Part shown: one piece after another, positions 1,299-63,735 of the stretch
How the letters are laid out: every line of letters starts with the position of its first letter
Position numbering within the stretch: the first letter of the stretch is position 1
Assembly: GCA_050250935.1 (NCBI GenBank)
Contig: JBFWNS010000006.1
Coordinates: 92,789-156,788 of the forward strand
Direction: 5' to 3'
DNA length: 64,000 nt
From: Candidatus Margulisiibacteriota bacterium
Lineage (GTDB): Bacteria > Margulisbacteria > Marinamargulisbacteria > JBFWNS01
Program-made: the position numbers and the translations under genes
The notes under the pieces: model-generated
Seen by the model: only the letters and a program-made list of their open reading frames with translations
What the model was told of the DNA's origin: nothing
Databases searched by the model: none

Positions 1299-2333
1299 TT
1301 AAAACAAGGTAGGTTGGGCAGAGGTCGTGTCTTTGGGCAAGGCATAGCCCAAATGCTCGTAGGCAGCGGGTCTTGCCATCCGGCCGCGATTGGTTCTTTC
1401 GATGAACCCCAATTGTAGCAAATAAGGTTCGTAAACGTCTTCAATGGTATCGGATTCTTCGGCAATGCTGGCGGCGATGGTGTCCACGCCCACGGGGCCG
1501 CCGTTGTATTTGGTGATGATGGTGGACAGGTATTTTCTGTCGATTTCATCCAAACCAAAGTGGTCGATGCCCATGCCGGTTAGGGCGTCGTGGATCAAGC
1601 CAAAATGGATGGTGCCATTGGTTTTAATTTGGGCCCAGTCCCTAACCCGTTTGAGAAGCCGGTTGGCAATACGTGGGGTTCCCCTGGACCGTTTTGCAAT
1701 TTCGGCAGCGGCTTCATCATCCAAAGGACAATTTAAAATGTCGGCGGCTCGGGAAATAATCACTTTTAAATCTGAAATGTCATAAAATTCCAGACGCTCG
1801 ATAATGCCAAATCGGTCTCGCAAGGGGGCGCTTAAAAGCCCAGCTCGGGTGGTGGCGCCAATCAGGGTGAAGGGGGGCAGATCAATGCGAATGGACCTTG
1901 CAGAAGGGCCTTTGCCAATGACGATGTCCAATTCGTAGTCTTCCAAGGCAGGGTAAAGCACTTCCTCGACGGTTCGGTTTAACCGGTGAATCTCGTCAAT
2001 GAACAAAATATCGCCTTTTTCCAAATTGGTCAGAATGGCTGCAAGATCTCCGGGGCGTTCGATGGCGGGGCCGGAGGTGGTTTTGATGTTCACATTCATT
2101 TCGTGGGAAACAATGTTGGCCAAGGTGGTTTTACCCAAGCCCGGTGGGCCATAGAGCAAGACGTGTTCCAGACTTTCATCCCGCTGTTTGGCGGCATCGA
2201 TAAAAATGCTGAGGTTTTGCTTGATTTTGGGTTGACCGATGAACTGGTGAAGGCGTTGAGGACGCAAGGTGAGTTCTTTGGTATCGTCACTGGTTTTGTC
2301 TGGATCCACCAGACGTTCGTCGTCGAGGCTCAT
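1299..2333 (-). CDS. ruvB: Holliday junction branch-migration helicase RuvB
   Basis: 344 aa with [19 protein letters not shown], Walker [17 protein letters not shown], and a typical RuvB C-terminal winged helix. Confidence 0.9.
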
Positions 2334-2339
2334 GGTTAG

Positions 2340-2453
2340 AGTGTATAAGTGTTGGCAGAATTTGTCAGGGGGTGTACAATTGCGCTCCTCACCTGTAGAC
2401 CGTCGTCTTTGATGGCCGGTCTTACGACGGAATTAATCAAGGAGTTCTCTTTC
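2340..2453 (+). promoter_or_regulatory. rpsF 5' leader with a hairpin (CCGTCGT...ACGACGG) just upstream of the SD; candidate S6:S18 autoregulatory element
   Basis: An inverted repeat lies at ~2398-2437, immediately before the 'aaggag' SD and the ATG at 2454. It resembles structured rpsF leaders described in several phyla. Confidence 0.35.
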
Positions 2454-2810
2454 ATGAAAGAATACGAAATTCTCTTTATTGTTAAGCCTCATTTGGGCGA
2501 TGACCAATATCAAGATCTATCTGATAAATTTGTGTCTTGGGTTAAAGACAACGGTGGCGACATCATCTTTATCAAACCCATGGGGCTTCGCGAATTGGGG
2601 CCTACTTTTGGCCGTCATTTGCAAGGCTACTACATTCAAAGTCATTTCAAAGCTACGCCTAAAACCCTTACTGAAATCAAAAATCGTTTTGCGGTTACCG
2701 AAACCGTTATCCGACATTTGATTGTGACTTTGGATTCGATTCAATCCAGCAAACCCCGAGTTGAAAAACCCAAACGCGAAAAAGCAGAAGCCCAGCCTCA
2801 AGAGGCCTAG
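2454..2810 (+). CDS. rpsF: 30S ribosomal protein S6
   Basis: MKEYEILFIVKPHLGDDQYQ... is the canonical S6 N-terminus, with an acidic or Lys-rich C-terminal tail. It is the first gene of the rpsF-ssb-rpsR-rplI cluster. Confidence 0.9.
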   Translation: MKEYEILFIVKPHLGDDQYQDLSDKFVSWVKDNGGDIIFIKPMGLRELGPTFGRHLQGYYIQSHFKATPKTLTEIKNRFAVTETVIRHLIVTLDSIQSSKPRVEKPKREKAEAQPQEA

Positions 2811-2819
2811 TTTGATCGC

Positions 2820-3281
2820 ATGTCTAGCTTAAACCGCATCATCCTTATCGGCACTGTTTCTTCGGATCCCGATCCCCGTGCAACCGCGGGTGGGGATTCT
2901 TTTTTGCGGTTTAATTTGTCTGTGGATCGCCCCATGCGTGCCGATGGTTTGGCCGGGCAGCCAGACGACATGCCGGTTGTGGCTTGGCGGCAAACAGCCG
3001 ATCAGGCCAAAGGCATTCAAAAAGGCCAGTTGGTGTTGGTGGACGGTAAAATTATTACCCGAACCTTGGATGATGCCCAAGGCAAACGGAAATGGATTAC
3101 CGAAATCGAAGCCAAAGATATTCGGTCTTTTGCCGGTGGTGTGGTTGCTGATGCCCCCGCTTATGTGCCGGCTCAGCCCGAAGCGTTTTCTGCGCCTTTC
3201 CCAAGCGATTCTTTAGAGAAAAAACAAGTGAGCATGGTGGAAGAATCAGACTTTGATTTTGGAGAGGAAATTCCTTTTTAA
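2820..3281 (+). CDS. ssb: Single-stranded DNA-binding protein (full length, with acidic C-terminal tip DFDFGEEIPF)
   Basis: OB-fold N-terminus NRIILIGTVSSDPDPRAT, a Gly/Pro/Ala-rich linker, and the acidic C-terminal peptide ending in IPF. Confidence 0.9.
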   Translation: MSSLNRIILIGTVSSDPDPRATAGGDSFLRFNLSVDRPMRADGLAGQPDDMPVVAWRQTADQAKGIQKGQLVLVDGKIITRTLDDAQGKRKWITEIEAKDIRSFAGGVVADAPAYVPAQPEAFSAPFPSDSLEKKQVSMVEESDFDFGEEIPF

Positions 3282-3283
3282 CC

Positions 3284-3643
3284 ATGTACAATAAAGTTTT
3301 TTTGATTGGGCGTTTGGTCAGAGATCCCGAAGTAAGAACCACTGTTTCTGGTATTGCGGTTGCCCGTTTTACCATTGCTGTGGACAGGTCGAAGCGTCGG
3401 GATACCAACGAAAAAATAACCGATTTTTTACGGATTGTGACTTGGCGACGCCAAGCTGAAATTGCTGGCCAGTATCTTCGAAAAGGGAAACTGGTTGCCA
3501 TCGAAGGACGCTTGCAGCTAGAATCGTACGAAAAAGACGGGGAAAAACAAAGTATGGCCGAAATTGTGGCCGATACGTTTCAGATGTTAGACAGCAAAGC
3601 GAGCACCGAGGCGGATTCGTCCGTTTCGATGCCCGAATTTTAG
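3284..3643 (+). CDS. Second SSB-like OB-fold paralog (119 aa) lacking the canonical acidic tip; PriB-like position between ssb and rpsR
   Basis: MYNKVFLIGRLVRDPEVRTTVSGIAVARFTIAV... is an SSB OB fold. There is no Gly-rich linker or DDDIPF tail; it ends in ...SMPEF. Confidence 0.75.
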   Translation: MYNKVFLIGRLVRDPEVRTTVSGIAVARFTIAVDRSKRRDTNEKITDFLRIVTWRRQAEIAGQYLRKGKLVAIEGRLQLESYEKDGEKQSMAEIVADTFQMLDSKASTEADSSVSMPEF

Positions 3644-3673: not shown

Positions 3674-3913
3674 GTGGAACAAAAATCACATTTAAAACGC
3701 CGCGTTAAACGCCGCAAGCCCTGTTTGTTTTGTGTGGATAAGGTGGATGTTGTGGATTACAAAGACACCCCACGGTATCGCCGGTTTGTTACCGATCGGG
3801 GCAAAATTTTTCCCCGTCGTAATTCTGGCATGTGTGCCAAGCATCAACGTGCTTTGGCCGAAGCCATCAAACGTGCACGCTACATTGGCTTGTTGCCATT
3901 TTGCATAGACTAA
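3674..3913 (+). CDS. rpsR: 30S ribosomal protein S18
   Basis: 79 aa with [63 protein letters not shown]. Start is GTG. Confidence 0.9.
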
Positions 3914-3928
3914 TTTAGAGGATAAACC

Positions 3929-4387
3929 ATGGGTGCAGAACTAGAAGTTATTTTTGTTAAAGATGTTAAAAACGTAGGGAAATTGGGTCAACGCCGCAAG
4001 GTTAGAATGGGATTTGCCAAAAATTTCTTGTTTCCAGAAGGCTTGGCGTTGTTGGTGAATAAGGCCAACCTTAGCTATTTCGAATCGATTCGCAAAAAAG
4101 AAGAAGCTCGCCGCGAACAATTGAAAGGTGAAGCTGAAACCCTTAAAACCCAATTGGAAGGCAAAGAAATTACCTTGTCTGCCACCACCCACGACGAAGG
4201 CAAATTGTATGGTTCCATTACCAAATCGGAAGTGGCCAAACAAATCGAAGCGGCCTTTTCGGTGTCTGTGGATAAAAATGACTTGGATATGGCTGAACAT
4301 ATCCGAGAAATTGGAACTTACACCGTTCGGTTGGTTCCCCATGCTGACGTGGTCATTTCTTTGACCCTTAACGTTAACGCTGCTTAA
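3929..4387 (+). CDS. rplI: 50S ribosomal protein L9
   Basis: MGAELEVIFVKDVKNVGKLGQRRKVRMGFAKNFLFPEGLA is the L9 N-domain signature. Confidence 0.9.
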   Translation: MGAELEVIFVKDVKNVGKLGQRRKVRMGFAKNFLFPEGLALLVNKANLSYFESIRKKEEARREQLKGEAETLKTQLEGKEITLSATTHDEGKLYGSITKSEVAKQIEAAFSVSVDKNDLDMAEHIREIGTYTVRLVPHADVVISLTLNVNAA

Positions 4388-4436: not shown

Positions 4437-6188
4437 ATGATTGATCTTGCCGGGGTCGTTTTGTATGTTGGCAAAGCCAAAAACCTAAAGCGCCGGGTTT
4501 CGAGCTATTTTAACCGGCATCACGATCATCCCAAGACAGCCGTTTTGGTTTCCAAGATCGAGCATATCGAGGTGATTGTGACCCGCACGGAGCACGATGC
4601 CTTGGTGCTGGAAAGTCAGTTGATTAAGGCCCTTCAGCCCCGATACAACATGGCGCTTAAAGACGACAAACATTATCCGTTTTTAAAGATTACCACCGAT
4701 CCTTTTCCCCGGGTGGTTATTGCCCGGTCGGTTGATAAAGACGGGGCCCAGTATTTTGGTCCTTACCCGTCCATTGGGTCTACGACGTTTTTGTTGCGGT
4801 TGTTGAACGATATTTTTCCGATTCGAGACTGTAAGCAGGCCATAGATTTGGTGGACCTTCAGCCCAAATGTATCAATTTGGATATTGGGCGCTGTTTGGG
4901 GCCTTGTGTGTTCAAACAGATTAAACCCGATTACGATGCCTTGATTCGCGATTTAACCCTGTTGCTTTCCGGCAAAAATGCCGATGTGATGCGCCGACTT
5001 GAAGCCGAAATGAAGCGACAAGCCGAAACCCTGCACTTCGAAGCAGCCGCCAAACTTCGGGATCGGTTGGCCAAACTAGAGCAACTATCGAGCCGGCAAA
5101 CAGTGTGCTTGAACACGGCAGATACGGTGCATGTGTGGGTGGTGGTGGAAAACGAAACCCAGTATTACCTGTTGGTTCAAACCTTGGTTGAGGGGCGCTT
5201 GTTGTATCAAAAAGGGGTTTATTTTGCCAAAGCCGATGGGGATATCGCTTTCTTTTTGGAGCAAGCCGTTTTGGGGTATTTGGAATTTTGCAAACCCGAG
5301 CATTATCCAGACGAGATTTGGTGTCAGTCGGTGTTTCTGGCGGATTTCGAAGCCATTGTGCCGGTGTTGGTTAAGCCCATTTTGGTGTTGGCTCCCCAGC
5401 GTGGCCTTAAAAAAACAGTGCTCGAAACCGCCGAGAAAAATGCCACCTTGTCCCTGCTTCGGCTTAAAAAATTGCCCACAACCAAACCCAAAAACGATGG
5501 GCAAGTTTTGGCTTTGGCCCAGGATATTTTGCGGCTTAAGGCCCTGCCAGAACGAATTATTGGGTTTGATATTTCTCATTTGCAGGGCACGGATATTGTG
5601 GCTTCTGCGGTACTCTTTAAAAACGGTCATCCCTATAAAACGGGGTATCGCCATTTTGCGATTAAGTCGGTTAGTGACCAGAGCAACGACCCCAAATCCA
5701 TGGCAGAAGTGGTGCATCGGCGGTTGTGGCAGTGTTTGCAAGACGAGGAGCCCTTGCCCCAGCTGTTGTTGATTGATGGCGGCAGAACCCAATTGAATGC
5801 CGCTTTAACCGTGATTCACGACCTGCGCCTGACTGGGGTGGTCGAGGCTGTTGCCTTGGCCAAACGTTGGGAAGAGATCTATTTACCCGGTCGGGATGTT
5901 CCGATAAGATTGGGGTTAAGCCACCCCGTGGTTCATCTGTTTCAACGTGTTCGGGATGAATCGCATCGGTTTGCTGGCCGCCTTCAGGGCAAAAAGCGAA
6001 CCCAGCGAACGTTTCGGTCTCGGTTTGATGGCATTCGGGGCCTTGGACCTCGAACCAAACAAAAATTGTTTGGTCTGTATCGAACTTTGGATCAGATGGC
6101 GCAGGTTACGGCCCAGTCTTTGGCTGATGATTTGGGGATTTCCTTGAAGATAGCCGAAGAAATTCAAAACCGATTGAAACAGAAGTGA
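4437..6188 (+). CDS. uvrC: Excinuclease ABC subunit C
   Basis: GIY-YIG motif at the N-terminus (GIYKMIDLAGVVLYVGKAKNLKRRV), a UvrBC-interaction region, an RNase H-like endonuclease domain, and a C-terminal (HhH)2. The true start may be a non-ATG codon slightly upstream (CTG at 4380). Confidence 0.85.
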   Translation: MIDLAGVVLYVGKAKNLKRRVSSYFNRHHDHPKTAVLVSKIEHIEVIVTRTEHDALVLESQLIKALQPRYNMALKDDKHYPFLKITTDPFPRVVIARSVDKDGAQYFGPYPSIGSTTFLLRLLNDIFPIRDCKQAIDLVDLQPKCINLDIGRCLGPCVFKQIKPDYDALIRDLTLLLSGKNADVMRRLEAEMKRQAETLHFEAAAKLRDRLAKLEQLSSRQTVCLNTADTVHVWVVVENETQYYLLVQTLVEGRLLYQKGVYFAKADGDIAFFLEQAVLGYLEFCKPEHYPDEIWCQSVFLADFEAIVPVLVKPILVLAPQRGLKKTVLETAEKNATLSLLRLKKLPTTKPKNDGQVLALAQDILRLKALPERIIGFDISHLQGTDIVASAVLFKNGHPYKTGYRHFAIKSVSDQSNDPKSMAEVVHRRLWQCLQDEEPLPQLLLIDGGRTQLNAALTVIHDLRLTGVVEAVALAKRWEEIYLPGRDVPIRLGLSHPVVHLFQRVRDESHRFAGRLQGKKRTQRTFRSRFDGIRGLGPRTKQKLFGLYRTLDQMAQVTAQSLADDLGISLKIAEEIQNRLKQK

Positions 6189-7324
6189 ACATGAGACGAG
6201 CCGTTTTTTGGGGTTTGATAGGCATGATGGTGATGAGCACGGGCTTGTTTGCTGCCGATGCTGCCAAAGAAAAGCTGGATCAAATCAATACCAAAATCGA
6301 GAAAAATCGCCAGAAAATTCAGCAAAAAGAACGCGAAAAGCGCCAGGCTGAAAGGGCCTTGGTTTCGGTTACCCGTGAATTGCGATATACCGAATTGCGT
6401 TTAAGTGTTGCGAAACGAAATCTTAGAGATTCCCAATACAAGGTGGCCGCTACCCGGTCTCAATTGGGGGATCTTCAAAAACAATATAACGATAAAAGTG
6501 GCCAATTTTCCCGCCGCTTGGTGGATATTTATAAAAATAGAAACTTGGGCTTTTTGGAATTTTTGTTTTCTCCTGAACGGTTCGTGTCGTTGGTGGATTC
6601 GTCGTATTATTTTGACCGTATAGTGCGCCAAGATACGGCCCTGATCCAAGACATGAAGGCCCGCTATAAAAACCTCGAAGTGGCCAAAACCCGCTACGAA
6701 GCCGAGACCCAACGCATTGAAGGGTTAAAGCAACAGATCTCTTCTGAAGAAAGCAATTTGTCGGCCCAGCGTCAAAAACACGCGGGATATGTGTCGGCCT
6801 TGGCTTCTGAGATCGAGGATATGGAGCGAAAAAATCGGGAGTTGGAGGCATCTTCAGAAGAAATCGCCCGATTGTTAAGGGGAACAACCGGCAAGCACGA
6901 GGTTTTGGGGACAGGGTCTTTTATTCGCCCCGCCTCTGGGTTTTTGTCGTCCCGATTTGGGGTTCGCAGGCATCCCATTTTTAAACGGTTGATCCGCCAC
7001 ATGGGTGTGGATTTTGCTTCGGGTACTGGGACTCCCATTTATGCAGCAGATTCTGGGGTTGTGGTGGTTGCAGGCGCAAAGCCTATTTATCATGGGTATG
7101 GGAACATTACGATTATTGATCATGGAAACCGGGGTGGAGATTCTCGCCGCTTTTCAACCATTTATGCCCATCAATCGCGGATTGTGGTGTCGGAAGGCCA
7201 ATCGGTTAAACAAGGGCAATTGATTGGCTATGTGGGGAGCACCGGCTATGCCACTGGCCCGCATTTGCATTTTGAAGTTCGTATTGACGGGGTTCCGGTG
7301 GATCCGTTGCGGTATTTGCAGTAG
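6185..7324 (+). CDS. Coiled-coil M23 family peptidoglycan endopeptidase (EnvC/NlpD-like with intact catalytic motifs)
   Basis: Signal peptide, a long Q/E/K/R-rich coiled coil, and a C-terminal M23 domain with HxxxD (HMGVDFAS) and HxH (HLHFEV). Start could be GTG 6185 or ATG 6191. Confidence 0.8.
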   Translation: MNMRRAVFWGLIGMMVMSTGLFAADAAKEKLDQINTKIEKNRQKIQQKEREKRQAERALVSVTRELRYTELRLSVAKRNLRDSQYKVAATRSQLGDLQKQYNDKSGQFSRRLVDIYKNRNLGFLEFLFSPERFVSLVDSSYYFDRIVRQDTALIQDMKARYKNLEVAKTRYEAETQRIEGLKQQISSEESNLSAQRQKHAGYVSALASEIEDMERKNRELEASSEEIARLLRGTTGKHEVLGTGSFIRPASGFLSSRFGVRRHPIFKRLIRHMGVDFASGTGTPIYAADSGVVVVAGAKPIYHGYGNITIIDHGNRGGDSRRFSTIYAHQSRIVVSEGQSVKQGQLIGYVGSTGYATGPHLHFEVRIDGVPVDPLRYLQ

Positions 7325-38903: not shown

Positions 38904-41201
38904 GTGAAGGAGCACCATCAAATGGCCAAAGTACACAACCTGGGGTTTCCCCGCATCGGACAAAACCGCGAATTAAAAACGGCCCTTGAGGCTTATTGGT
39001 CCGGCAAATCGGATCGAGACAGCGTATTGCAAACCGCCGCCAGCCTTCGGGCTGACGCCCTGACCCGCCAACAGGGGTTGGACTGGATTCCCGTGGGCGA
39101 TTTTGCTTTGTATGACCACGTTTTAAACACCAGCGTTTTACTGGGCAATTTACCCAAACGGGCGTTGGAAAATGCCGATCATCCGCTAGACCAGTATTTC
39201 CGGGCTGCCCGTGGCCGTTCGGCAACCGACACCGAGGCTACCTCGGTACGTGCCAGTGAAATGACCAAGTGGTTTGACAGTAACTACCACTACCTGGTTC
39301 CCGAATTTGATGCCGCTACCCGTTTCAAAGCCAGCCCGGATTGGTTGCTCACCCACCTTAAACAGGCCAAAGCCCCTAATCTGAAACCGGTTTTGGTGGG
39401 GCCTTTAACCTATTTGTGGATCGGCAAAAGCAGTGATGGGACTTCCAAGCTCAGTTTGCTGAATCAGTTGGTGGCTGAATATGCAGTTGTATTAACCGAA
39501 TTGGCTCAGCACGGCATCACCTGGGTGCAGATCGATGAACCTATTTTGTGCTTGGAATTGCCCAAAGATTGGCAAGACGCCTTCAAAACCGCCTATACCA
39601 CCCTAAACAAAGCCTTGGCCCAAACCGCCATTCAGCTTTTGATGGCCACCTATTTCGGTCGCTTGGCCGAAAATTTGGACCTGGCTTTGTCATTGCCCGT
39701 TGCCGGGTTGCATGTGGATGCCATTAACGCCAAAGCCGATGTGTTACGGGCTGCTGAGTTGTTGGGGCCGGAACAGGTGTTGTCGGTGGGGGTGGTGAAT
39801 GGGCGTAATATTTGGAAAACGGATTTAACCACAGCGTTGGCGTGGTTGGAGCCGCTTCATGCCTGGTTGGGGGATCGGTTGTGGATTGCGCCGTCGTCGT
39901 CGCTGTTGCATGTGCCACTTTCGTTGGCGGCCGAAGCCCGGTTGGATGACGAGATAAAGTCTTGGCTGGCCTTTGCCGTAGAAAAGTTGGACGAAGTTCG
40001 GGTGTTGGGTAAAGCGTTAAATGACGGTCGGCTTGCTGTGGCCGATGCGTTGACAGCCAATGCCGCCGCCATAGCCGCCCGGCGAAACTCAGCACGCATT
40101 CACCAGCCCACAGTTCAGGCGCGTGTCGCTGCAGTATCTGTGGATGCTGGCAACCGCACCTCGGCCTATGCCCGCCGCCAAGCTTTACAACAACAGCTGT
40201 TGAACTTGCCTTTGTATCCCACCACCACCATCGGCTCTTTTCCCCAAACCGCCGATATTCGCAAAACCCGCCAACAGTTCAAACAAGGCCTGATCGATGC
40301 AGCCACCTACACAAACCGCATGCATCAAGAAATTGAAGCCTGTGTTCGCGAGCAAGAGGCCTTGGGGTTGGATGTTTTGGTCCACGGCGAAGCCGAGCGT
40401 AACGATATGGTGGAGTATTTTGGTGAGCAGCTCAGTGGGTTTGCCTTTACCCAAGCGGGGTGGGTACAGTCTTACGGTTCTCGCTGTGTTAAACCCCCGA
40501 TTTTGTTTGGCGATTGTTCCCGCCCCACGCCCATGACCGTTGCTTGGATTACCCATGCCCAATCTCTGACCGATAAACCCATGAAAGGCATGCTCACCGG
40601 TCCGGTCACCATCTTAAATTGGTCCTTTGTGCGGGACGATCAACCCCGCCGTGACACCTGCTTGCAACTGGCCGTGGCCCTGCGTGACGAAGTTTTGGAC
40701 TTGGAAAAAGCTGGTATTCGCATCATTCAAATCGATGAAGCCGCCCTGCGCGAAGGTCTTCCCCTGCGCCAAAGCGATTGGCAAACGTATCTGGATTGGT
40801 CGGTTTTGGCTTTTCGCATCACCGCCAACGGTGTGGCTGATGATACCCAAATCCACACCCACATGTGCTATTCCGAATTTAACGATATTTTGCCCGACAT
40901 TGCCGCCATGGATGCCGATGTCATCACCATCGAAACCTCTCGGTCCAATATGGAACTATTGGATGCCTTTGAAGCGTTTCGCTATCCCAACGGCATCGGG
41001 CCTGGTGTCTATGACATCCATTCCCCTAATGTGCCCACCACCCACAGCATCCAAGCCCTCATCCAAAAAGCCGAGCAACGCATTCCTGCCGAACAGCTTT
41101 GGGTGAATCCCGATTGTGGTCTCAAAACACGGGGCTGGCCCGAGGTGAGGCAGGCGTTGACCCACATGGTTGAAGCGGCTCAGGCGTTGCGCAGTAGATA
41201 G
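38904..41201 (+). CDS. metE: 5-methyltetrahydropteroyltriglutamate--homocysteine methyltransferase (cobalamin-independent methionine synthase)
   Basis: 765 aa: [19 protein letters not shown]..., two (beta/alpha)8 barrels, and C-terminal zinc ligands (H...C...E...C) in ...[10 protein letters not shown]... / ...DCGLKTR... Confidence 0.9.
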
Positions 41202-42147: not shown

Positions 42148-44721
42148 TTATGCCGACCCAACCACGCTATCCACCCAGTTTTCAACATGCTCAATCTTGA
42201 GCCCGTTGTCTAAATACCCTTGTTTGGCTTTGGCTAGCAGGGTAAAAAAATGATGCGCTTCGGGTTGTAGGGTGCTTAACTCGGTGATTAAGTCTTGGTC
42301 TGTGACGGGGAACCGGCCTGTGATTTCATAAATCGCCCGTTGTCCCACAGCCAGCCCATAGCTGATCCAATTGTCCAGGCTGGGGCAGGTGGTTAAGGTT
42401 TCCCAGGTGGCATCTTCGTGTTGGTCGATGAGGGCGGGGATGTTGTTTTCCAGGCGGTGGTGAAGGTCGGCTTGGCAAGCCTCGCCCCAAATGACCTGCA
42501 GGGGTTGGCTGTGCAACAGTTTGGCGTTGCAGGCCGTGTCCTCGAGGGTGGCCATACTTGCAATCCCAACGTCATGCCCATCCGGCAGCGTAGGACCGGC
42601 GATGAGGGTGAGAACCCAGTGGGTTTGGGCGTTATCGTCCAAGGGGGATCGGGTCACGATGACCAGGGGCAGGGGTTCTTTTTTGAATTGAGGATGGGGG
42701 CCTTCGCCTCGTCCATAGCCGCCTGCCAAAAGGACGGTTTGAATGGGTGCTCTTAGTGCTTCCGGGGTATTTTGTAGGATGCAATGCAGGGTGGCCAGTT
42801 GCCAGCGAATCAGCCGCTCTCCGTTGTCGCAGGCCATGGCGAAATGGGCAGCGTCAAACTGCGTTGTACTTTGAAGTAGGGCGCTGACTTGAAGGGGCAT
42901 GGCCAATGCGGTTGCCAGCGCTGCATGGTGGGGTTGGCCAAGATCTAGAACCTGGTGAAGTGCTGTTAAAAATCGGTGGAGTAGCATGGGTTCAAGTTGA
43001 AGAATCAGTAGCTGTAATTGGCGGTTGAACTGGGGTTCTGAAAAGGTATTTGTTTGAGGGTCAATGCAGGTATTTTGAGCCAAAAAGAGTCGCAGAACTT
43101 GGTCCATGATGATGGGTGCCGCCTGTAAATAGTCGGCCTGGACAAACAACCCGACACAGTCATCAGCACAGAGCCGTCTTGGGGTGCTTGGCCATTGGCT
43201 GGCCAGTTCCAGTAGGTGTTGGACTCGGTTTCCTTGGGGTAAACAAAGGTCCACGGTGGATTGCCCGGTTTTAATCCATTGGGCTGCCGATTCAATATAG
43301 CCAAACAACGGGCTAACCGTTGGAACATGCAGGGGAATTTGACAGGAGGGATGAAGCGCATCCTGTAAGGTGACGACCACCGTATCTGTTTCAGCTTGAA
43401 GTCGGTTCACAATGGCTGCGTGCAGACCTGGGTCCAAGCGGTGTGTTCGAATCAGCTGATACAACGCATCCAATCGAAGGGCTGGGTCCAGGCCTGGAAT
43501 CTCCAGGGTTTCACAGCAGGTGCTTAACCAAAAAATGGCTTTGGGGTTGTCTTGAAACACCTGAAAAAGCCTTGCCATAAGCGCGGGGTGGGGCGCTACA
43601 GTGGTTTGGATAAACGGCTTGAAATCCCGATGAAAATCTTGATGCTCAATCAAATCTGCGACTACCACGATGGCGGCTCTTTCATAAAAATCTGGGGTGG
43701 TTGTGGTGATGGTGCGAAGTGCTACGGCGCAAAAAGTGACGTTCAGCGTGGGTACATCCTGCTGCCGCTCGCACAACAGACTCACGGTTTGGGTATAATT
43801 TGGGTCCTGCGGATCCAACTGGTCAAATTTGGCCATGGTGGCGATAGCCCAGTTTTTGGCTTCTGTTTGGAGGTGTTGTTGAATCGCTTTGCAATAGGGT
43901 AAAGAGGGCCGTAGCGATTCGGTGACCCGTTCTAAGATCGTAGGGAATAAGAGGTTTAAAATGCAGATCTGTGATCTAGCCTGGTGTGGATCGGTAGTTG
44001 AAGGGGGGGTGTTTAGAATCGATTTGCACCGTTCATGGTTTTCGGGGGAACTTAGGTCGTGGGGTTGAAAGCCTTGTTTAAAAATAATGCTCAAGGCTTG
44101 TTGTTGAACGTGGCGTGGGCCTTCTGCCAGGTCTCTGAAAAGGCGTTGGATATAGTGCTGGGTCAGTTTTGCTGAGGGGTTTTTGTGTAGCATGATCGAC
44201 CTCACTTTTTCTGCATCGGTCAGGGGGATGGTGTCCCAGGCGCGTTGTAAGACCGCTTCAGGTTCACTACAGTTGAGTAGAACCATCGATAAGGCATGAG
44301 GTGTACCCAACAGTATATAAGCATCGCGGATTCGGGGTGACATCTTTATGTAATAGAGCCCTCGCTCACTAAAATGGTATGCATATTCCTGGTAGGGGAG
44401 GGCAGGAATGTTGGTGCGCTCCCACCCGTTTTCAAACCTAAAGAAATTGAGGGCCAAAATGAGTTGCAATTGGGTTTCGCGATCATCAGCCAGGTGTTCG
44501 ACATGCTCGATCAGATAGTTCGTATAGTGTTTACACGCAGGTATTCTCGGGAGGTGTTTAAGCCATTGGGCTGGTCCGGCCATCTTTAAGGTTGCTAAAA
44601 AGGTGTCCCGTGTTTCTGACGTAGACCTGGTATCACTGGCCCTGATCTCGAGGAAGCCCCAGTGATACTTCCAGTCTTTTTCAGGAATAAGGTGTTGGAC
44701 GGCAATGTATTTATGGTTCAT
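42148..44721 (-). CDS. Large orphan protein (857 aa) with a C-terminal degenerate GlnD/GlnE-like 'GGYGRGE' nucleotidyltransferase-like motif
   Basis: No signal peptide or TM seen. Mostly alpha-helical, Leu/Gln-rich composition. LLAGGYGRGEG lies at ~aa 663-673 (nt ~42697-42730), but the expected SDIDL is replaced by an insert and LPLVI. An AT-rich promoter is upstream. Confidence 0.5.
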   Translation of the reverse strand: MNHKYIAVQHLIPEKDWKYHWGFLEIRASDTRSTSETRDTFLATLKMAGPAQWLKHLPRIPACKHYTNYLIEHVEHLADDRETQLQLILALNFFRFENGWERTNIPALPYQEYAYHFSERGLYYIKMSPRIRDAYILLGTPHALSMVLLNCSEPEAVLQRAWDTIPLTDAEKVRSIMLHKNPSAKLTQHYIQRLFRDLAEGPRHVQQQALSIIFKQGFQPHDLSSPENHERCKSILNTPPSTTDPHQARSQICILNLLFPTILERVTESLRPSLPYCKAIQQHLQTEAKNWAIATMAKFDQLDPQDPNYTQTVSLLCERQQDVPTLNVTFCAVALRTITTTTPDFYERAAIVVVADLIEHQDFHRDFKPFIQTTVAPHPALMARLFQVFQDNPKAIFWLSTCCETLEIPGLDPALRLDALYQLIRTHRLDPGLHAAIVNRLQAETDTVVVTLQDALHPSCQIPLHVPTVSPLFGYIESAAQWIKTGQSTVDLCLPQGNRVQHLLELASQWPSTPRRLCADDCVGLFVQADYLQAAPIIMDQVLRLFLAQNTCIDPQTNTFSEPQFNRQLQLLILQLEPMLLHRFLTALHQVLDLGQPHHAALATALAMPLQVSALLQSTTQFDAAHFAMACDNGERLIRWQLATLHCILQNTPEALRAPIQTVLLAGGYGRGEGPHPQFKKEPLPLVIVTRSPLDDNAQTHWVLTLIAGPTLPDGHDVGIASMATLEDTACNAKLLHSQPLQVIWGEACQADLHHRLENNIPALIDQHEDATWETLTTCPSLDNWISYGLAVGQRAIYEITGRFPVTDQDLITELSTLQPEAHHFFTLLAKAKQGYLDNGLKIEHVENWVDSVVGSA

Positions 44722-60666: not shown

Positions 60667-63600
60667 CTATAGTTTCCAATCGATCGTCAAGCGGATGGGG
60701 ACGTTTTTCAGATCGGGGGTGCCTAGGGAATAGGCTTCGAGTCGGGCACTGAGATTTTGGGAAATGGCATAGATGGTACCTACCCGTAGCAGTAGGGTGC
60801 TGTCTGAAGTGGACGAATCTGAAAATGTCTGTGCTGTGTTCGCAAGTTTATAGGAAGCGGATTGTCCAGAGAGTAGCGAATGTCCACTGACGCCGACTTC
60901 AGCAAAGGTACGGAGGTTGTCCGTATCAAAAACAAGGCCAGCACTGGTGTTCCAGATTCCAGAAACCATCGTGCGGGAATCCCAACGGAACTGGTCGCCT
61001 TCGGAATAAGCGTCTTGGTATTCGTAAACGGTGGAGACGTCGCCTGCAAGGCGTAAACTCAACCCATTTCCAAGCGCGATGGGACGTTTCAAAGATACGC
61101 CCAGCAAGGCTTCCGAGCTTTGGGTGTTCCCATGAATGGTTTGGCTTCCTGATTCTGAACCAAAATTGGTCAAAATGGTTCTAGAGGTATCCAGCCATCT
61201 TTTTCCAACGCCAATGCGCCATGACATATCGAGATCCCATAGTTTGGCAGGCCTTGATTGATAGCCAAGACGTAGACCCTTATCGGTTATCTTTTGAGCG
61301 TCATCGTTTTCAATGGCGAGTTGTGATTGCTGAACATCCAGCCAGAAAGAACCGGAAGGATCTAGTGTGAAGCCGGTGTTGATCCCTTGCGCTGCGAGGC
61401 TATATCTCGCAGTTGATTGTGCATTACGGATGCTGTTTTCTAGATAGGGGCTTACCCAAAAAGAAGTGGGGTTTTCAGGTAAGACACGCAGCAGGCTGTT
61501 GGTCCGCGCTGCGATCCAATCGTTGGCGATATCCAGTGCATCTGCGTTGGCCGCGAGTATCAGATTATTGTTTTGAGCAAACGCGCGGGTAGGGCTAGCG
61601 TTGTCGGTTACCGTCCATGTTCCTTGGGTTGCGAAGATATAAGAGCGTTTGCCAAGGTCAATCGTGAGGTCTGCGGTGTCATGGGTAAACAGGGTTCCGG
61701 TAATCAAGGTCCCACTTTTTAAGGCCAGTTTATTGGTAGAGCCCGATGCAAAATAGACCGCGTAGGCTTGGGATGCATCAGAAGCTTTGGCAGAAACGCG
61801 ACCGTTAATCGTTACAGAATTGGTTTCTCCAGAAACATAAAGGGCTGTTGCGGTACCGTTAGTAGCCGTAGCCCGTACATCCCCATTCACGTCGATGGTG
61901 ATCTGATTCTGGTCACCACTTTGATGGATCGCAAAGGCATTGCCATTGCTGGAATCGGTATAGACTTTACCAGAGACAGAGACGAGGTTATCCTGCCCCC
62001 CTTCTTGCTTGATGCCATAGCCAAGGGTTGTGCTGCCAGATGCGGAAACCATCATCTGACCGGTAACCGTGACGGTATTGCTTCCCCCACTGCCACTGGT
62101 TCCGCTAGAACCTGCTACGCCATCGGCACCCGCCACACCCGCAGAGCCGGTCAAACCACTGGCACCATCCACACCGGCCGCGCCATTAGCGCCAGCAACA
62201 CCATTGTCGCCAGCACCTGAATTGTCAGACAAACCGTCTGTACCCGAGAATCCATTCGTGCCGGAGGTGCCATTTTCAGTGTCTCCGATACCGCCAACTC
62301 CACCCATACCTTCGCTCCCACCCGTTCCGCCAGTGCTGCCAATACCGCCAGCACCGCCATTCCCGCCGTCACCGCCATTGCCGCCAAAATCGCCATCGCC
62401 GCCAGCGCCTCCAAAACCACCATTACCGCCAGCGCCTCCAAAACCACCACTACCGCCAGCACCAGCAGCGCCACCTGTTCCGCCAACGCCGCCAGATCCG
62501 CCAAGGCCGCCAATACCGCCAGCGCCGCTAACACCGCCAGAACCAGCTGCGCCGCCAACACCGGCCGCACCGCCCGTGACAACTTGTTTTATTCCATAGG
62601 CTGTTGCTTCCCCGGAAGTCGAGGTTGCTGAAGCAGAGATATGCCCAGAAAGCGTGACAACGTTGTTTCCACTGCCCCCTGTGCCACCATTACCGCCCAC
62701 ACCGCCAGTGCCGCCAATCCCTCCAGTACCACCAACCCCGCCTGCGCCGCCAGCACCGCCATCGCCGCCAGCACCACCGGCACCGCCAGCGCCACCAACA
62801 CCAGCAGCACCGCCAGCACCGCCATTGCCACCATCACCACCATTGCCGCCATTGGTGCCTGCAAATCCAGCGCCGCCAGCGCCGCCAGAACCGCCAGCGC
62901 CGCCGTTCCCGCCATTGCCGCCGTCGCCGCCAGCACCCCCCGTACTGCCAGCGCCACCATCGCCGCCAACGCCGCCGGCACCGCCAGCACCACCGGCGCC
63001 GCCAGCACCACCAGCACCGCCCGAGCCGCCAGCACCGCCGGTAGCCGATTGTTGTATCCCATAAGCAATAGCCGTATTGGCGCTGGTAGCCGTGGCTGTC
63101 ACCGTGTGAGAGAGGGTAAGGATGTTACTCCCCGTGCCGCCGCTGGCACCGTTTGTCCCATTTTGGCCATTGGCCCCAGTACCGCCAGTACCGCCACTGG
63201 CCCCGCTTCCGCCAAAAGCCCCACTTTCGCCACTATCCCCAGTTCCTCCAACGCCGCCATTGGTTCCGTCTCCTCCCGCTGTGCCATCACCTCCATCATT
63301 GCCATCGGGTGACACACCGGTTCCGTCTTGCCCAGGCATGCCTGCAGCGCCAGCAGTGCCATGGTCCCCAGCGACGCCACTAGACCCATTGGCCCCAGCC
63401 GTAGTCGCATCTGCCCCAGCGACGCCACTGGTTCCATTGGCCCCAGCCGTTCCCGTAGCTCCAGTTGTTCCAGTAGCCCCAGCTGTTCCGCTTTCACCAA
63501 CAGCAGTTTGTCCTATTCCGATGGCCGTTTCAGCGGTGCTGGACTGGTCTTCAGTGGAAATATACGTGTTGGATGTTGGGGTATCCGTTCCATAGATTGT

Positions 63601-63735
63601 AACCGGTGTTAATAACAAGAGGATCAAACACAGTTTGATATAAACAAATTTATCAAAATAGTTAATCGAGACAGTGGCTTCTGTACCCTTTGGTTGGGCA
63701 CTAGCCATCCTAGATTTGGTTGATTTTGTAGACAT
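60667..63735 (-). CDS. Giant (1022 aa) glycine-rich autotransporter-like surface protein: signal peptide, three Gly-Gly-X repeat modules, C-terminal beta-barrel
   Basis: N-terminus has a TM/signal (FVYIKLCLILLLLTPVTIYG). Residues ~60-520 are (GGX)n tracts such as GGAGGSGGAGGAGG..., each followed by a conserved ~25-aa segment (..TLSGHISASATSTSGEATAYGIKQ / ..LSHTVTATATSANTAIAYGIQQ / ..VTGQMMVSASGSTTLGYGIKQ). The C-terminal ~280 aa have alternating aromatic beta-strands ending ...RLTIDWKL. Confidence 0.65.
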   Translation of the reverse strand: MSTKSTKSRMASAQPKGTEATVSINYFDKFVYIKLCLILLLLTPVTIYGTDTPTSNTYISTEDQSSTAETAIGIGQTAVGESGTAGATGTTGATGTAGANGTSGVAGADATTAGANGSSGVAGDHGTAGAAGMPGQDGTGVSPDGNDGGDGTAGGDGTNGGVGGTGDSGESGAFGGSGASGGTGGTGANGQNGTNGASGGTGSNILTLSHTVTATATSANTAIAYGIQQSATGGAGGSGGAGGAGGAGGAGGAGGVGGDGGAGSTGGAGGDGGNGGNGGAGGSGGAGGAGFAGTNGGNGGDGGNGGAGGAAGVGGAGGAGGAGGDGGAGGAGGVGGTGGIGGTGGVGGNGGTGGSGNNVVTLSGHISASATSTSGEATAYGIKQVVTGGAAGVGGAAGSGGVSGAGGIGGLGGSGGVGGTGGAAGAGGSGGFGGAGGNGGFGGAGGDGDFGGNGGDGGNGGAGGIGSTGGTGGSEGMGGVGGIGDTENGTSGTNGFSGTDGLSDNSGAGDNGVAGANGAAGVDGASGLTGSAGVAGADGVAGSSGTSGSGGSNTVTVTGQMMVSASGSTTLGYGIKQEGGQDNLVSVSGKVYTDSSNGNAFAIHQSGDQNQITIDVNGDVRATATNGTATALYVSGETNSVTINGRVSAKASDASQAYAVYFASGSTNKLALKSGTLITGTLFTHDTADLTIDLGKRSYIFATQGTWTVTDNASPTRAFAQNNNLILAANADALDIANDWIAARTNSLLRVLPENPTSFWVSPYLENSIRNAQSTARYSLAAQGINTGFTLDPSGSFWLDVQQSQLAIENDDAQKITDKGLRLGYQSRPAKLWDLDMSWRIGVGKRWLDTSRTILTNFGSESGSQTIHGNTQSSEALLGVSLKRPIALGNGLSLRLAGDVSTVYEYQDAYSEGDQFRWDSRTMVSGIWNTSAGLVFDTDNLRTFAEVGVSGHSLLSGQSASYKLANTAQTFSDSSTSDSTLLLRVGTIYAISQNLSARLEAYSLGTPDLKNVPIRLTIDWKL

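What the first reader, a model, noticed from the sequence alone, without database searches (positions are those of the whole stretch)
2820..3643. Tandem ssb paralogs inside the rpsF-rpsR ribosomal operon: a PriB-like intermediate?
The operon reads rpsF-ssb-ssb2-rpsR-rplI. The first copy is a canonical SSB with a Gly/Pro-rich linker and acidic tip (DFDFGEEIPF). The second (119 aa) retains the OB fold (VFLIGRLVRDPEVRTTVSGIAVARFTIAV) but has no linker or acidic tip; it ends ...SMPEF. In E. coli the equivalent slot between rpsF and rpsR is occupied by priB, which evolved from a duplicated ssb. Many other bacteria have a single ssb there. This locus therefore looks like the duplication state from which PriB-type proteins are thought to have arisen, or a specialised second SSB such as a competence-type SsbB.
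Basis: partly seen in the sequence, partly recalled or inferred. Interest (0 to 1): 0.55.

Follow-up and report, generated by a model that had tools for sequence, protein, structure and literature searches.

The report
Ancient two-gene SSB pair in Margulisbacteria
Two adjacent genes for single-stranded-DNA-binding protein sit inside a ribosomal-protein operon of a Margulisbacteria genome; they are an old, phylum-wide pair rather than a fresh duplication, and one gene has kept the DNA-binding core while the other has kept the tail that recruits partner proteins.

Summary
The window encodes rpsF, a 153-aa ssb, a 119-aa ssb, rpsR, rplI and uvrC on one strand, and the two ssb genes are 2 nt apart.

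The genome is a Candidatus Margulisiibacteriota MAG. The same tandem occurs in all 21 Margulis/Saganbacteria/WOR-1 loci examined. About 145 loci from other phyla have one ssb. So the pair is ancient and stable, not transitional.

- **Copy 2 (tail-less)** has the canonical, slowly evolving OB fold, with all three core stacking aromatics in 135/135 family members.
- **Copy 1 (tailed)** is the fast-evolving one. In this window it has D and L at two stacking positions.

In the basal state both copies end in PF. In the Marinamargulisbacteria-type clade, which includes this window, copy 2 has lost the tip. There copy 1 has a longer tail with an extra internal DFDF motif.

Neither copy matches PriB or competence-type SsbB models, and neither looks phage- or plasmid-derived.

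My best reading is inferred, not shown: a two-subunit SSB, probably mixed tetramers with two tails per four OB folds.

The parts
2352..2380 (+). Promoter-like site (TTGGCA-17-TACAAT) about 75 nt upstream of rpsF. Possible operon promoter.
   Evidence: This is a consensus match only: 6 sites were found in the region against 4.6 expected from shuffles, so the evidence is weak.
2454..2810 (+). rpsF (ribosomal protein S6), the first gene of the operon.
   Evidence: Pfam Ribosomal_S6 at 75.7 bits and TIGR00166 at 58 bits.
2820..3281 (+). ssbA (copy 1, 153 aa). It has a divergent OB fold (aa 1-~107) and a disordered tail (aa ~108-153) ending in the acidic tip EEIPF. It is the partner-recruiting subunit.
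   Evidence: Scores and identity:
- Pfam SSB 67 bits; TIGR00621 53.8 bits against a 53.95 cut-off.
- 100% identical to MGE4170480.1, Candidatus Margulisiibacteriota.

Structure:
- The AF2 model has pLDDT above 90 over most of aa 11-100 (10-residue block means 83-97).
- The tail has pLDDT around 50.

Key residues:
- D50 and L84 sit at the W54 and W88 equivalents.
- R6/D75 keep the dimer-dimer salt-bridge pair.
3210..3224 (+). SLEKK motif in the ssbA tail (aa 131-135). It is a variant of the 'SLEEK' motif seen in some long ssbA tails.
   Evidence: LE[EKQD]K occurs in 11/63 long ssbA tails against 2/149 short ones. This is a weak motif.
3249..3260 (+). Internal acidic-aromatic motif DFDF (aa 144-147, context ESDFDFGEE) in the ssbA tail, just upstream of the tip.
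   Evidence: An aromatic-x-aromatic motif (typically [DE]xDFDF[GSN][DE]) is present in 51/63 ssbA proteins of 150 aa or more, against 1/149 of the shorter ones.
3264..3278 (+). ssbA C-terminal tip EEIPF, the SSB-Ct type docking peptide.
   Evidence: The tip is read directly from the sequence. ssbA-family proteins end in PF in 63/63 long and 144/149 short members.
3284..3643 (+). ssbB (copy 2, 119 aa). It has a canonical, slowly evolving OB fold (aa 1-~103) and a 16-aa remnant tail ending SMPEF, with no D-x-PF tip. It is the conserved ssDNA-binding subunit. It starts 2 nt after the ssbA stop codon.
   Evidence: Scores:
- Pfam SSB 115 bits; TIGR00621 123 bits.
- 560 homologues at E <= 0.001 among 568 word-sharing candidates.

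Key residues:
- F48, W54 and Y81 sit at the W54, F60 and W88 equivalents, which are aromatic in 135/135 family members.
- K4/E74 keep the salt-bridge pair.

Structure:
- AF2 mean pLDDT is 84.7.
- Foldseek top hits are Firmicute SsbA/SsbB.
3674..3913 (+). rpsR (ribosomal protein S18). It uses a GTG start preceded by AAGGAG.
   Evidence: Pfam Ribosomal_S18 at 84 bits and TIGR00165 at 91 bits.
3929..4387 (+). rplI (ribosomal protein L9), the last ribosomal gene of the unit.
   Evidence: Pfam L9_N and L9_C; TIGR00158 at 115 bits. One search finds no terminator-like site on the + strand between 2454 and 4338.
4437..6188 (+). uvrC, a syntenic neighbour downstream of rplI in the Margulis/Sagan loci that extend far enough to show it.
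   Evidence: phmmer and Pfam labels in related loci.

Best explanation
**Shown.** This is an ancient, vertically inherited pair of SSB paralogues, which I call ssbA and ssbB. They lie together inside the rpsF-rpsR-rplI operon, 2 nt apart, with no terminator-like site between them. The same tandem is found in all 21 Margulisiibacteriota/Saganbacteria/WOR-1 loci examined.

The two genes have evolved asymmetrically. ssbB keeps a canonical OB core. In the Marinamargulisbacteria-type clade, which includes this window, it has lost the C-terminal PF tip. ssbA always keeps the tip, but its OB fold evolves much faster. In the same clade its disordered tail is longer and has gained an internal DFDF motif.

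**Inferred.** The two proteins work as one SSB system. SsbB supplies high-affinity ssDNA wrapping. SsbA supplies the tails that dock replication, repair and recombination partners.

The mechanism I consider most likely is co-assembly into mixed (A2B2-type) tetramers with two tails per four OB folds. That would be a split-gene equivalent of the Deinococcus-Thermus two-OB SSB and of the engineered E. coli linked-dimer SSBs.

**Confidence.** About 0.9 that this is an ancient, sub-functionalised pair. About 0.4 that they form mixed tetramers. The confidence score given for this explanation (0.45) refers to the whole statement, including the inferred co-assembly.
For: **Conservation and age**
- The tandem rpsF-ssbA-ssbB-rpsR-rplI(-uvrC) is present in 21/21 loci of the phylum.
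- About 145 loci from Bacillota, Armatimonadota and other phyla have a single ssb.
- The ssbA and ssbB trees both separate Saganbacteria/WOR-1 from the Margulis clade.

**Coupling**
- The ssbA-ssbB gap is -1 to 21 nt in all 21 loci, and 2 nt here.
- No + strand terminator-like site lies between rpsF and the last ~50 nt of rplI.

**Asymmetry**
- OB identity is higher for B than for A in 190/190 genome pairs (0.63 against 0.42).
- In B the W54, F60 and W88 equivalents are aromatic in 135/135 sequences.
- In A the W54 equivalent is aromatic in only 101/149 short and 32/63 long sequences. The window's ssbA has D50 and L84.
- ssbA ends in PF in 207/212 sequences. ssbB ends in PF in 35, xF in 23 and neither in 77 of 135.

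**Co-variation of traits**
- ssbA is 153-196 aa in the 11 loci where ssbB lacks the tip. It is 129-142 aa in the 9 tipped loci with a complete ssbA.
- The DFDF motif occurs in 51/63 long ssbA and 1/149 short ssbA.
- All 7 tip-less ssbB proteins looked up had an upstream SSB gene of 132-196 aa. The six with DNA all end in PF.

**Compatibility with mixed tetramers**
- Both families keep the K8/E81-type dimer-dimer salt-bridge residues (interface from PMC8509808 Table 2).
- Both OB folds are confidently predicted.

**Precedent**
[quoted passage not shown] That construct carries one C-terminal tail per pair of OB folds and was used earlier to ask how many tails SSB needs (PMC4872115).
- Cyanobacteria, in the same NCBI clade, have a tail-less canonical-OB SSB plus a divergent-OB tailed SSB. 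Each alone was seen only as monomer or dimer by gel filtration (PMC3976300).
Against:
- B. subtilis SsbA and SsbB each form homotetramers (PMC3384303), and Streptomyces SsbB crystallised as a four-subunit assembly with A/B and C/D pairs (PMC3616714). No characterised bacterial SSB paralogues are reported as mixed tetramers.
- In roughly half of the phylum both copies have full tips and full aromatic sets, so each could be a self-sufficient SSB.
- The link between tip loss and tail lengthening may reflect one or a few evolutionary events in a single clade. The 21 loci are therefore not independent data points.
- Adjacency is partly explained by the duplication simply having happened in place inside a conserved operon.
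- Deep nodes of the OB tree are poorly supported: A monophyly 0.39, A+B monophyly 0.03. The origin of ssbA, whether by in-phylum duplication or by acquisition, is not settled.
Confidence: 0.45

Rival explanations
1. The two proteins form two independent homotetrameric SSBs with separate jobs. SsbA4 is the replisome and repair hub. SsbB4 is a bulk ssDNA-coating or protecting protein. They possibly co-assemble side by side on the same ssDNA, as B. subtilis SsbA and SsbB do.
For: - B. subtilis SsbA and SsbB each form homotetramers. Co-assembled SsbA.ssDNA.SsbB complexes work better than either protein alone (PMC3384303).
- Streptomyces SsbA and SsbB have distinct functions (PMC3616714).
- In 10 of 21 loci both copies carry PF tips, and most copies have full aromatic sets.
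- A and B differ systematically at the Y97-equivalent position: W/Y in 208/212 A sequences against aromatic in 21/135 B sequences.
Against: - In this window SsbA has lost two of three core stacking aromatics while holding the only tips. SsbB binds DNA but cannot dock partners. Two separate tetramers would therefore split DNA binding from recruitment.
- The gene gap is only -1 to 21 nt in every locus, and I found no promoter-like site immediately upstream of ssbB. The only extra + strand promoter-like match lies inside ssbB, upstream of rpsR.
Confidence: 0.35
2. One reading: copy 2 is a PriB-like replication-restart adaptor in the making, or a competence-type SsbB, caught at the duplication stage.
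For: - It occupies the same slot as priB in E. coli (rpsF-priB-rpsR-rplI; PMC8509808).
- It is small (119 aa) and tail-less.
- PriB is thought to derive from an in-operon ssb duplicate (Ponomarev 2003, cited in PMC8509808).
Against: - TIGR04418 PriB_gamma scores 16.4 bits against a cut-off of 72.
- No PriB chain appears among the 34 PDB sequence hits or the top 50 Foldseek hits.
- Copy 2 keeps the K/E dimer-dimer pair that PriB has replaced with R/R (PMC8509808).
- It is the slowest-evolving SSB in these genomes, whereas PriB diverged rapidly.
- Its orthologues in half the phylum still carry a PF tip.
- SsbB equivalog models are not met: NF005242 scores 82 against 189, and NF005579 scores 99 against 169.
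- The tandem is ancient, not transitional.
Confidence: 0.07
3. One copy is a decaying or recently acquired (phage or plasmid) duplicate with no role of its own.
For: ssbA scores just under the TIGR00621 cut-off. A single-sequence word-indexed search found only 5 relatives.
Against: - A profile search finds a large ssbA family: more than 200 distinct sequences here and 496 representatives at E <= 1e-30.
- That family has invariant G11, W56, G69, G76, G88, E95 and PF.
- The OB fold is confidently predicted.
- Position in the operon is conserved in 21/21 loci.
- The best phage or plasmid match to ssbB is 51% identical, no better than chromosomal Firmicute SSBs. Operon orthologues reach 58-73%.
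Confidence: 0.03

Closest known systems
Cyanobacterial SSB set: Alr0088-type truncated SSB plus All4779 (Anabaena PCC 7120; PMC3976300)
   Same: - One partner is a tail-less OB-only protein of about 119 aa whose OB is closer to canonical SSBs.
- The other partner has a divergent OB (originally annotated as hypothetical), a Pro-rich spacer and an acidic tip.
- The pair is found across the phylum.
- Cyanobacteria and Margulisiibacteriota are placed in one clade by NCBI taxonomy.
   Different: - The paper describes alr0088 and all4779 as separate loci and does not place them in an rpsF operon.
- Orthology of the two pairs was not testable here, because no cyanobacterial sequences could be fetched.
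- ssbB scores only 77 bits against a cut-off of 161 on NF005674 (PRK07459), a 121-position short-SSB equivalog model. I recall this model as cyanobacterial, but I did not check that.
Deinococcus-Thermus homodimeric SSB (two OB folds and one tail per chain) and the E. coli linked-dimer SSB constructs (PMC1761420, PMC4872115)
   Same: - Four OB folds with only two tails per functional unit.
- The two OB folds are non-equivalent.
- The engineered E. coli versions remain viable with only two DNA-binding-competent OB folds.
   Different: - Here the two OB folds are separate genes, and the tailed one comes first.
- There is no specific sequence relationship. Thermus tops the PDB list only because its two domains add up. 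Per domain it scores 27-59 bits, against 60-95 bits for B. subtilis SsbA.
- Tree support for a link is 0.05 or less.
- Co-assembly is inferred here, not shown.
Firmicute SsbA/SsbB (B. subtilis, S. aureus, S. pneumoniae) and actinobacterial SsbA/SsbB
   Same: - Paralogous SSBs, one of which may lack the acidic tail.
- Division of labour between the two, with co-assembly on ssDNA reported (PMC3384303).
- They are the closest solved structures for both copies.
   Different: - In B. subtilis and Streptomyces the second ssb lies outside the rpsF operon. Streptomyces ssbB is monocistronic (PMC3616714), and B. subtilis and S. pneumoniae ssbB are competence-induced (PMC3128108).
- In actinobacteria the paralogue outside the operon is the faster-evolving one (PMC3616714).
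- Here both genes are in the operon, and the tail-less copy is the slow-evolving one.
PriB of beta- and gamma-proteobacteria
   Same: - It occupies the same genomic slot (rpsF-x-rpsR-rplI).
- It has an OB fold derived from an ssb duplicate.
- It has no tail.
   Different: - PriB is a dimer with a diverged sequence and a different ssDNA-binding mode, and ssb itself sits elsewhere in the genome.
- ssbB here is a canonical SSB core with the tetramer interface residues intact, and it sits next to a second ssb.

Membership tests
Bacterial SSB (Pfam PF00436 / TIGR00621) | OB-fold domain matching the SSB profile above the curated cut-off | tested here: met
   - Pfam cut-off is 26 bits. Copy 1 scores 67 and copy 2 scores 115.
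- TIGR00621 cut-off is 53.95 bits. Copy 2 scores 123. Copy 1 scores 53.8, marginally below.
- AF2 models and Foldseek place both copies with solved SSBs, with TM to target 0.87-0.91 for the best matches.
Bacterial SSB (Pfam PF00436 / TIGR00621) | Base-stacking aromatics at the E. coli W54, F60 and W88 equivalents | tested here: met
   - Copy 2 meets this: F48, W54 and Y81. The family is aromatic at all three positions in 135/135 sequences.
- Copy 1 meets it only at the F60 equivalent (W56). It has D50 and L84 at the other two.
Bacterial SSB (Pfam PF00436 / TIGR00621) | Disordered linker plus acidic C-terminal tip ending in PF | tested here: met
   - Copy 1 meets this...ESDFDFGEEIPF, with tail pLDDT around 50.
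- Copy 2 does not. It ends SMPEF with no linker. Its orthologues end in PF in 35 of 135 sequences.
Bacterial SSB (Pfam PF00436 / TIGR00621) | Homotetramer (dimer-dimer interface) | not testable with these tools
   Only a proxy was available. The K8/E81-type salt-bridge residues are kept in both copies: R6/D75 in copy 1 and K4/E74 in copy 2. Oligomeric state needs experiment or multimer modelling.
PriB (TIGR04418 PriB_gamma) | Match to the PriB profile above cut-off | tested here: not met
   Copy 2 scores 16.4 bits and copy 1 scores 17.2 bits, against a cut-off of 72. No PriB chain appears in the PDB sequence searches or in the Foldseek top 50.
PriB (TIGR04418 PriB_gamma) | Dimer, with the SSB dimer-dimer salt bridge replaced (R4/R75 in K. 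pneumoniae PriB) | tested here: not met
   Copy 2 has K4/E74. Its family has K/R in 132/135 and E/D in 133/135 sequences (PMC8509808 Table 2).
PriB (TIGR04418 PriB_gamma) | Sole OB gene between rpsF and rpsR, with ssb elsewhere and with PriA and DnaT partners | tested here: inconclusive
   The slot is shared with a second ssb, so it is not the sole OB gene. No priA or dnaT lies in the 64-kb window. The rest of the genome could not be searched.
Competence-type SsbB (NF005242 B. subtilis type / NF005579 streptococcal type) | Equivalog score above cut-off | tested here: not met
   Copy 2 scores 82 against 189 on NF005242, and 99 against 169 on NF005579.
Competence-type SsbB (NF005242 B. subtilis type / NF005579 streptococcal type) | Separate, competence-regulated locus | tested here: not met
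   Copy 2 lies 2 nt downstream of ssbA inside the ribosomal operon, in all 21 loci.
Deinococcus-Thermus two-OB SSB | Two OB folds in one polypeptide with a single C-terminal tail | tested here: not met
   Here there are two separate ORFs in different frames, separated by a stop codon plus 2 nt. There is no specific phylogenetic affinity: bootstrap support is 0.05 or less.
Cyanobacterial short SSB (NF005674 PRK07459) | Equivalog score above cut-off | tested here: not met
   Copy 2 scores 76.9 bits against a cut-off of 161. Orthology of ssbA with All4779 was not tested, because no cyanobacterial sequence was available. That this model is cyanobacterial is from my memory, not from a tool result.

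The most novel reading that the evidence does not exclude
Margulisbacteria, and possibly their cyanobacterial relatives with the Alr0088/All4779 pair, use a naturally heteromeric SSB. It would be an A2B2 tetramer encoded by two closely spaced genes. One subunit specialises in wrapping ssDNA. The other specialises in carrying partner-docking tails, which bear two acidic-aromatic motifs (DFDF and the PF tip). On this reading the tandem in the rpsF operon would be the ancestral form of the dispersed cyanobacterial pair.
Probability: 0.3. Interest if true: 0.7.

Novelty: new variant of a known kind. Interest (0 to 1): 0.5.

Why it matters
SSB is the hub of bacterial genome maintenance. How many tails and how many active OB folds a tetramer needs has so far been studied only with engineered E. 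coli proteins.

A whole phylum that keeps two co-located ssb genes would be a natural experiment on that question. In these genomes the tail is retained on one gene and the stacking residues are fully retained only on the other.

The pair also has three other uses:
- It offers a concrete candidate for a natural heteromeric bacterial SSB.
- It gives a possible evolutionary context for the puzzling truncated and 'hypothetical' SSBs of cyanobacteria.
- It shows that an in-operon ssb duplicate, the layout invoked for the origin of PriB, can be stable over deep time without becoming PriB.

In practice, current annotation names both genes simply 'single-stranded DNA-binding protein' and hides this distinction.

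Tried and rejected
**Homology with the Thermus/Deinococcus two-OB SSB.** Thermus SSB tops both PDB searches, but only because its two domains are summed. Per-domain scores are lower than to B. subtilis SsbA. NJ bootstrap support for ssbB+Thermus-N or ssbA+Thermus-C is 0.05 or less. Rejected.

**Natural A-B gene fusions as 'Rosetta stone' evidence.** 47 of the top 150 representative hits are two-OB proteins. The 28 whose sequences I read look like independent fusions from other lineages, for example a proteobacterial type ending DDFDDDIPF. I saw no ssbA-ssbB fusion among them, but I did not score their domains against the two profiles.

**Horizontal origin from phage or plasmid.** The best matches are 51% identical. 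Rejected.

**Orthology with cyanobacterial All4779/Alr0088.** This could not be tested.

**Metagenome scan with the ssbA alignment.** It failed for lack of a conserved 7-10-column stretch. The ssbB alignment was used instead.

**Deep phylogeny.** With 105 columns and NJ only (no ML software on the machine), the tree does not resolve whether ssbA arose by duplication inside the phylum.

**Rfam.** Nothing was found in the window.

**priA or dnaT in the window.** None was found. This is not informative about the rest of the genome.
Full report
**1. The observation**

On the + strand the window encodes these genes:
- rpsF (2454-2810)
- an SSB of 153 aa (2820-3281)
- an SSB of 119 aa (3284-3643)
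- rpsR (3674-3913)
- rplI (3929-4387)
- uvrC (4437-6188)

ruvB is divergent upstream. The two ssb ORFs are in different frames, separated by TAA plus 2 nt. Both match Pfam SSB, and they are 36% identical over the first 75 residues (E = 3e-16).

Copy 1 ends ...ESDFDFGEEIPF. Copy 2 ends ...SSVSMPEF and has no linker. No + strand terminator-like site lies between rpsF and the last ~50 nt of rplI. One promoter-like site lies about 75 nt upstream of rpsF (consensus matches only).

The proteins are 100% identical to MGE4170480.1 and MGE4170481.1 from a Candidatus Margulisiibacteriota MAG. NCBI places this phylum in the Cyanobacteriota/Melainabacteria group.

**2. Which copy is 'canonical'**

The scores say the opposite for the OB fold.

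| Measure | Copy 1 | Copy 2 |
|---|---|---|
| Pfam SSB (bits) | 67 | 115 |
| TIGR00621 (bits; cut-off 53.95) | 53.8 | 123 |
| Relatives in single-sequence word-indexed search | 5 | 560 |

Scores are, and relative counts. Copy 2's closest relatives are nearly all short proteins of 111-137 aa.

Aligned to E. coli and B. subtilis SSB, copy 2 has F48, W54 and Y81 at the W54, F60 and W88 equivalents. Copy 1 has D50, W56 and L84, so it keeps only one of the three.

Both OB folds are confidently predicted and both tails are disordered. The closest solved structures for both are Firmicute SsbA/SsbB.

**3. Distribution**

Contexts came from three sources:
- look-ups of homologues
- a scan of one genome per species
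- a metagenome scan

Together they gave 21 loci with the arrangement rpsF-ssbA-ssbB-rpsR-rplI, followed by uvrC wherever the contig extends that far. Their record names are Margulisiibacteriota, Marinamargulisbacteria, Saganbacteria, WOR-1, UBP8 or 'bacterium'. I use ssbA for the first-position gene and ssbB for the second. About 145 loci from other phyla in the same scans have a single ssb.

A profile of eight ssbA proteins retrieved a large family of 128-170 aa, almost all ending D[LIV]PF. An exhaustive profile search found 496 representatives at E <= 1e-30, a count that also includes fused two-OB proteins.

In an NJ tree of the OB core:
- ssbB forms one short-branched clade (bootstrap 0.59).
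- ssbA forms long-branched groups.
- Both gene trees separate the Saganbacteria/WOR-1 loci from the Margulis loci.

The duplication is therefore older than the radiation of the phylum. It is not a recent or transitional state. Deep nodes are unresolved (A+B monophyly 0.03), so the ultimate origin of ssbA stays open.

**4. Asymmetric evolution and two states**

Across the 20 loci with both genes complete, OB identity is higher for ssbB than for ssbA in 190/190 genome pairs (means 0.63 and 0.42). The intergenic gap is -1 to 21 nt in all 21 loci.

ssbA ends in PF in every one of the 21 loci. ssbB comes in two states.

| State | Loci | ssbB C-terminus | ssbA length |
|---|---|---|---|
| Both tipped | 10 (Saganbacteria/WOR-1, plus L011 and L092) | PF | 129-142 aa (9 complete ssbA) |
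| ssbB tip-less | 11 (this window and Marinamargulisbacteria-type loci) | xF or neither | 153-196 aa |

Over the wider protein sets:
- ssbB ends in PF in 35, xF in 23 and neither in 77 of 135 distinct sequences.
- ssbA ends in PF in 207/212.
- Long ssbA tails carry an internal acidic-aromatic motif, typically [DE]xDFDF[GSN][DE]. It occurs in 51/63 long ssbA against 1/149 short ssbA.

In the window the motif is ESDFDFGEE, directly before the tip (nt 3249-3260).

Stacking aromatics are invariant in ssbB (135/135 at all three positions). They are relaxed at the W54 equivalent in ssbA: aromatic in 101/149 short and 32/63 long sequences.

Both families keep the residues equivalent to the K8-E81 dimer-dimer salt bridge of enterobacterial SSB (interface from PMC8509808).

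**5. Mechanism**

*Shown.* Two intact, conserved SSB genes lie 2 nt apart in one operon, with no terminator-like site between them. Their degeneration is complementary. The tip is lost only from B, and DNA-contact aromatics are relaxed only in A.

*Inferred.* They act as one system. In this window SsbA holds the only docking tips but has a weakened ssDNA surface. SsbB has the full ssDNA surface but no tip. From established knowledge of E. coli SSB, the protein must both coat ssDNA and bring partners to it through the tip. The simplest way to meet both needs is co-assembly in one tetramer with two tails per four OB folds.

Three precedents make this plausible:
- That stoichiometry is the natural design of Deinococcus-Thermus SSB.
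- E. coli tolerates linked-dimer SSB with only two DNA-binding-competent OB folds (PMC4872115).
- In cyanobacteria an analogous pair exists: tail-less Alr0088 with the more canonical OB, and tailed All4779 with a divergent OB. Each protein alone was seen only as monomer or dimer by gel filtration. All4779 gave a probable tetramer on cross-linking in the presence of ssDNA (PMC3976300).

I put about 0.4 on mixed tetramers. I put about 0.35 on two homotetramers that share the work on the same ssDNA, as shown for B. subtilis SsbA and SsbB (PMC3384303).

The extra DFDF motif may be a second docking site that compensates for the lost SsbB tips. This is speculation.

**6.

*PriB-like.* The slot is the same as priB in E. 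coli, and the layout is the one proposed for PriB's origin (Ponomarev 2003, cited in PMC8509808). Against this:
- ssbB scores 16 bits against the PriB model (cut-off 72).
- No PriB chain appears in the sequence or fold searches.
- ssbB keeps the tetramer salt bridge.
- ssbB is the slowest-evolving SSB in these genomes.
- ssbB still has a tip in half the phylum.

*Competence SsbB.* The equivalog models are not met, and the gene sits inside a ribosomal operon.

*Phage or plasmid origin.* The best matches are 51% identical, below the operon orthologues at 58-73%.

*Decaying duplicate.* This is contradicted by the conservation of both genes.

**7. Comparison and novelty**

SSB paralogy and tail-less SSBs are well known in Firmicutes, Actinobacteria and Cyanobacteria. 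What differs here:
- The in-operon tandem is conserved across a phylum.
- The polarity is reversed, with the tail on the fast-evolving copy.
- Tip loss, tail lengthening and the DFDF motif change together.

Full-text searches found no paper describing this. I class it as a new variant of a known kind, of moderate interest.

**Caveats**
- The trait correlation may rest on few independent events.
- The trees are NJ on 105 columns.
- Oligomeric state and expression are untested.
- Orthology with the cyanobacterial pair could not be examined.

Noticed in passing
window 42148-44721 (-) and 60667-63735 (-): Two large ORFs of 857 aa and 1022 aa have no Pfam family at E <= 1e-5.
   Followed up: no
proteins P0245-P0390, not in the window: 47 of the 150 best representatives for the ssbA profile are 220-321 aa proteins with two SSB OB folds. 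Most of the 28 I read end in a single C-terminal tip. They look like several unrelated lineages, including a proteobacterial-looking one ending DDFDDDIPF. Fused two-OB SSBs therefore seem far more widespread than the Deinococcus-Thermus group. Their taxonomy was not determined.
   Followed up: partly
window 3249-3260; long ssbA proteins such as P0276, P0279, P0316, L174 2462-2998: The long ssbA tails carry a conserved internal [DE]xDFDF[GSN][DE] motif. Many also carry an extended tip of the form PP[SGD]F[GDE]xE[IV]EE[ED][IV]PF. These may be additional docking motifs.
   Followed up: partly
P0033 and P0406 (homologues of window 3284-3643): ssbB-type proteins are labelled 'Thermoproteota archaeon' and 'Candidatus Woesearchaeota archaeon' in NCBI. 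These are probably mis-binned Margulisbacteria contigs in archaeal MAGs.
   Followed up: no
window 1299-2333 (-), 4437-6188 (+), 6131-7321 (+); L171-L176: Some synteny around the operon is conserved. uvrC and then an M23 peptidase lie downstream in L171, L172, L173, L175 and L176 and at the P0070 place. In L174 the gene after uvrC has no Pfam hit. ruvB is divergent upstream in L173, L174 and at the P0070 place.
   Followed up: partly
window 3495-3524 (+): A promoter-like site (TTGCCA-18-TAGAAT, 10 of 12 matches) lies inside ssbB, about 150 nt upstream of rpsR. It could be an internal promoter for rpsR-rplI, but the number of such sites is no higher than in shuffled sequence.
   Followed up: no
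window 38904-41201 (+): A cobalamin-independent methionine synthase (metE) is encoded here, with both Meth_synt domains at very high scores. It is unrelated to the finding.
   Followed up: no
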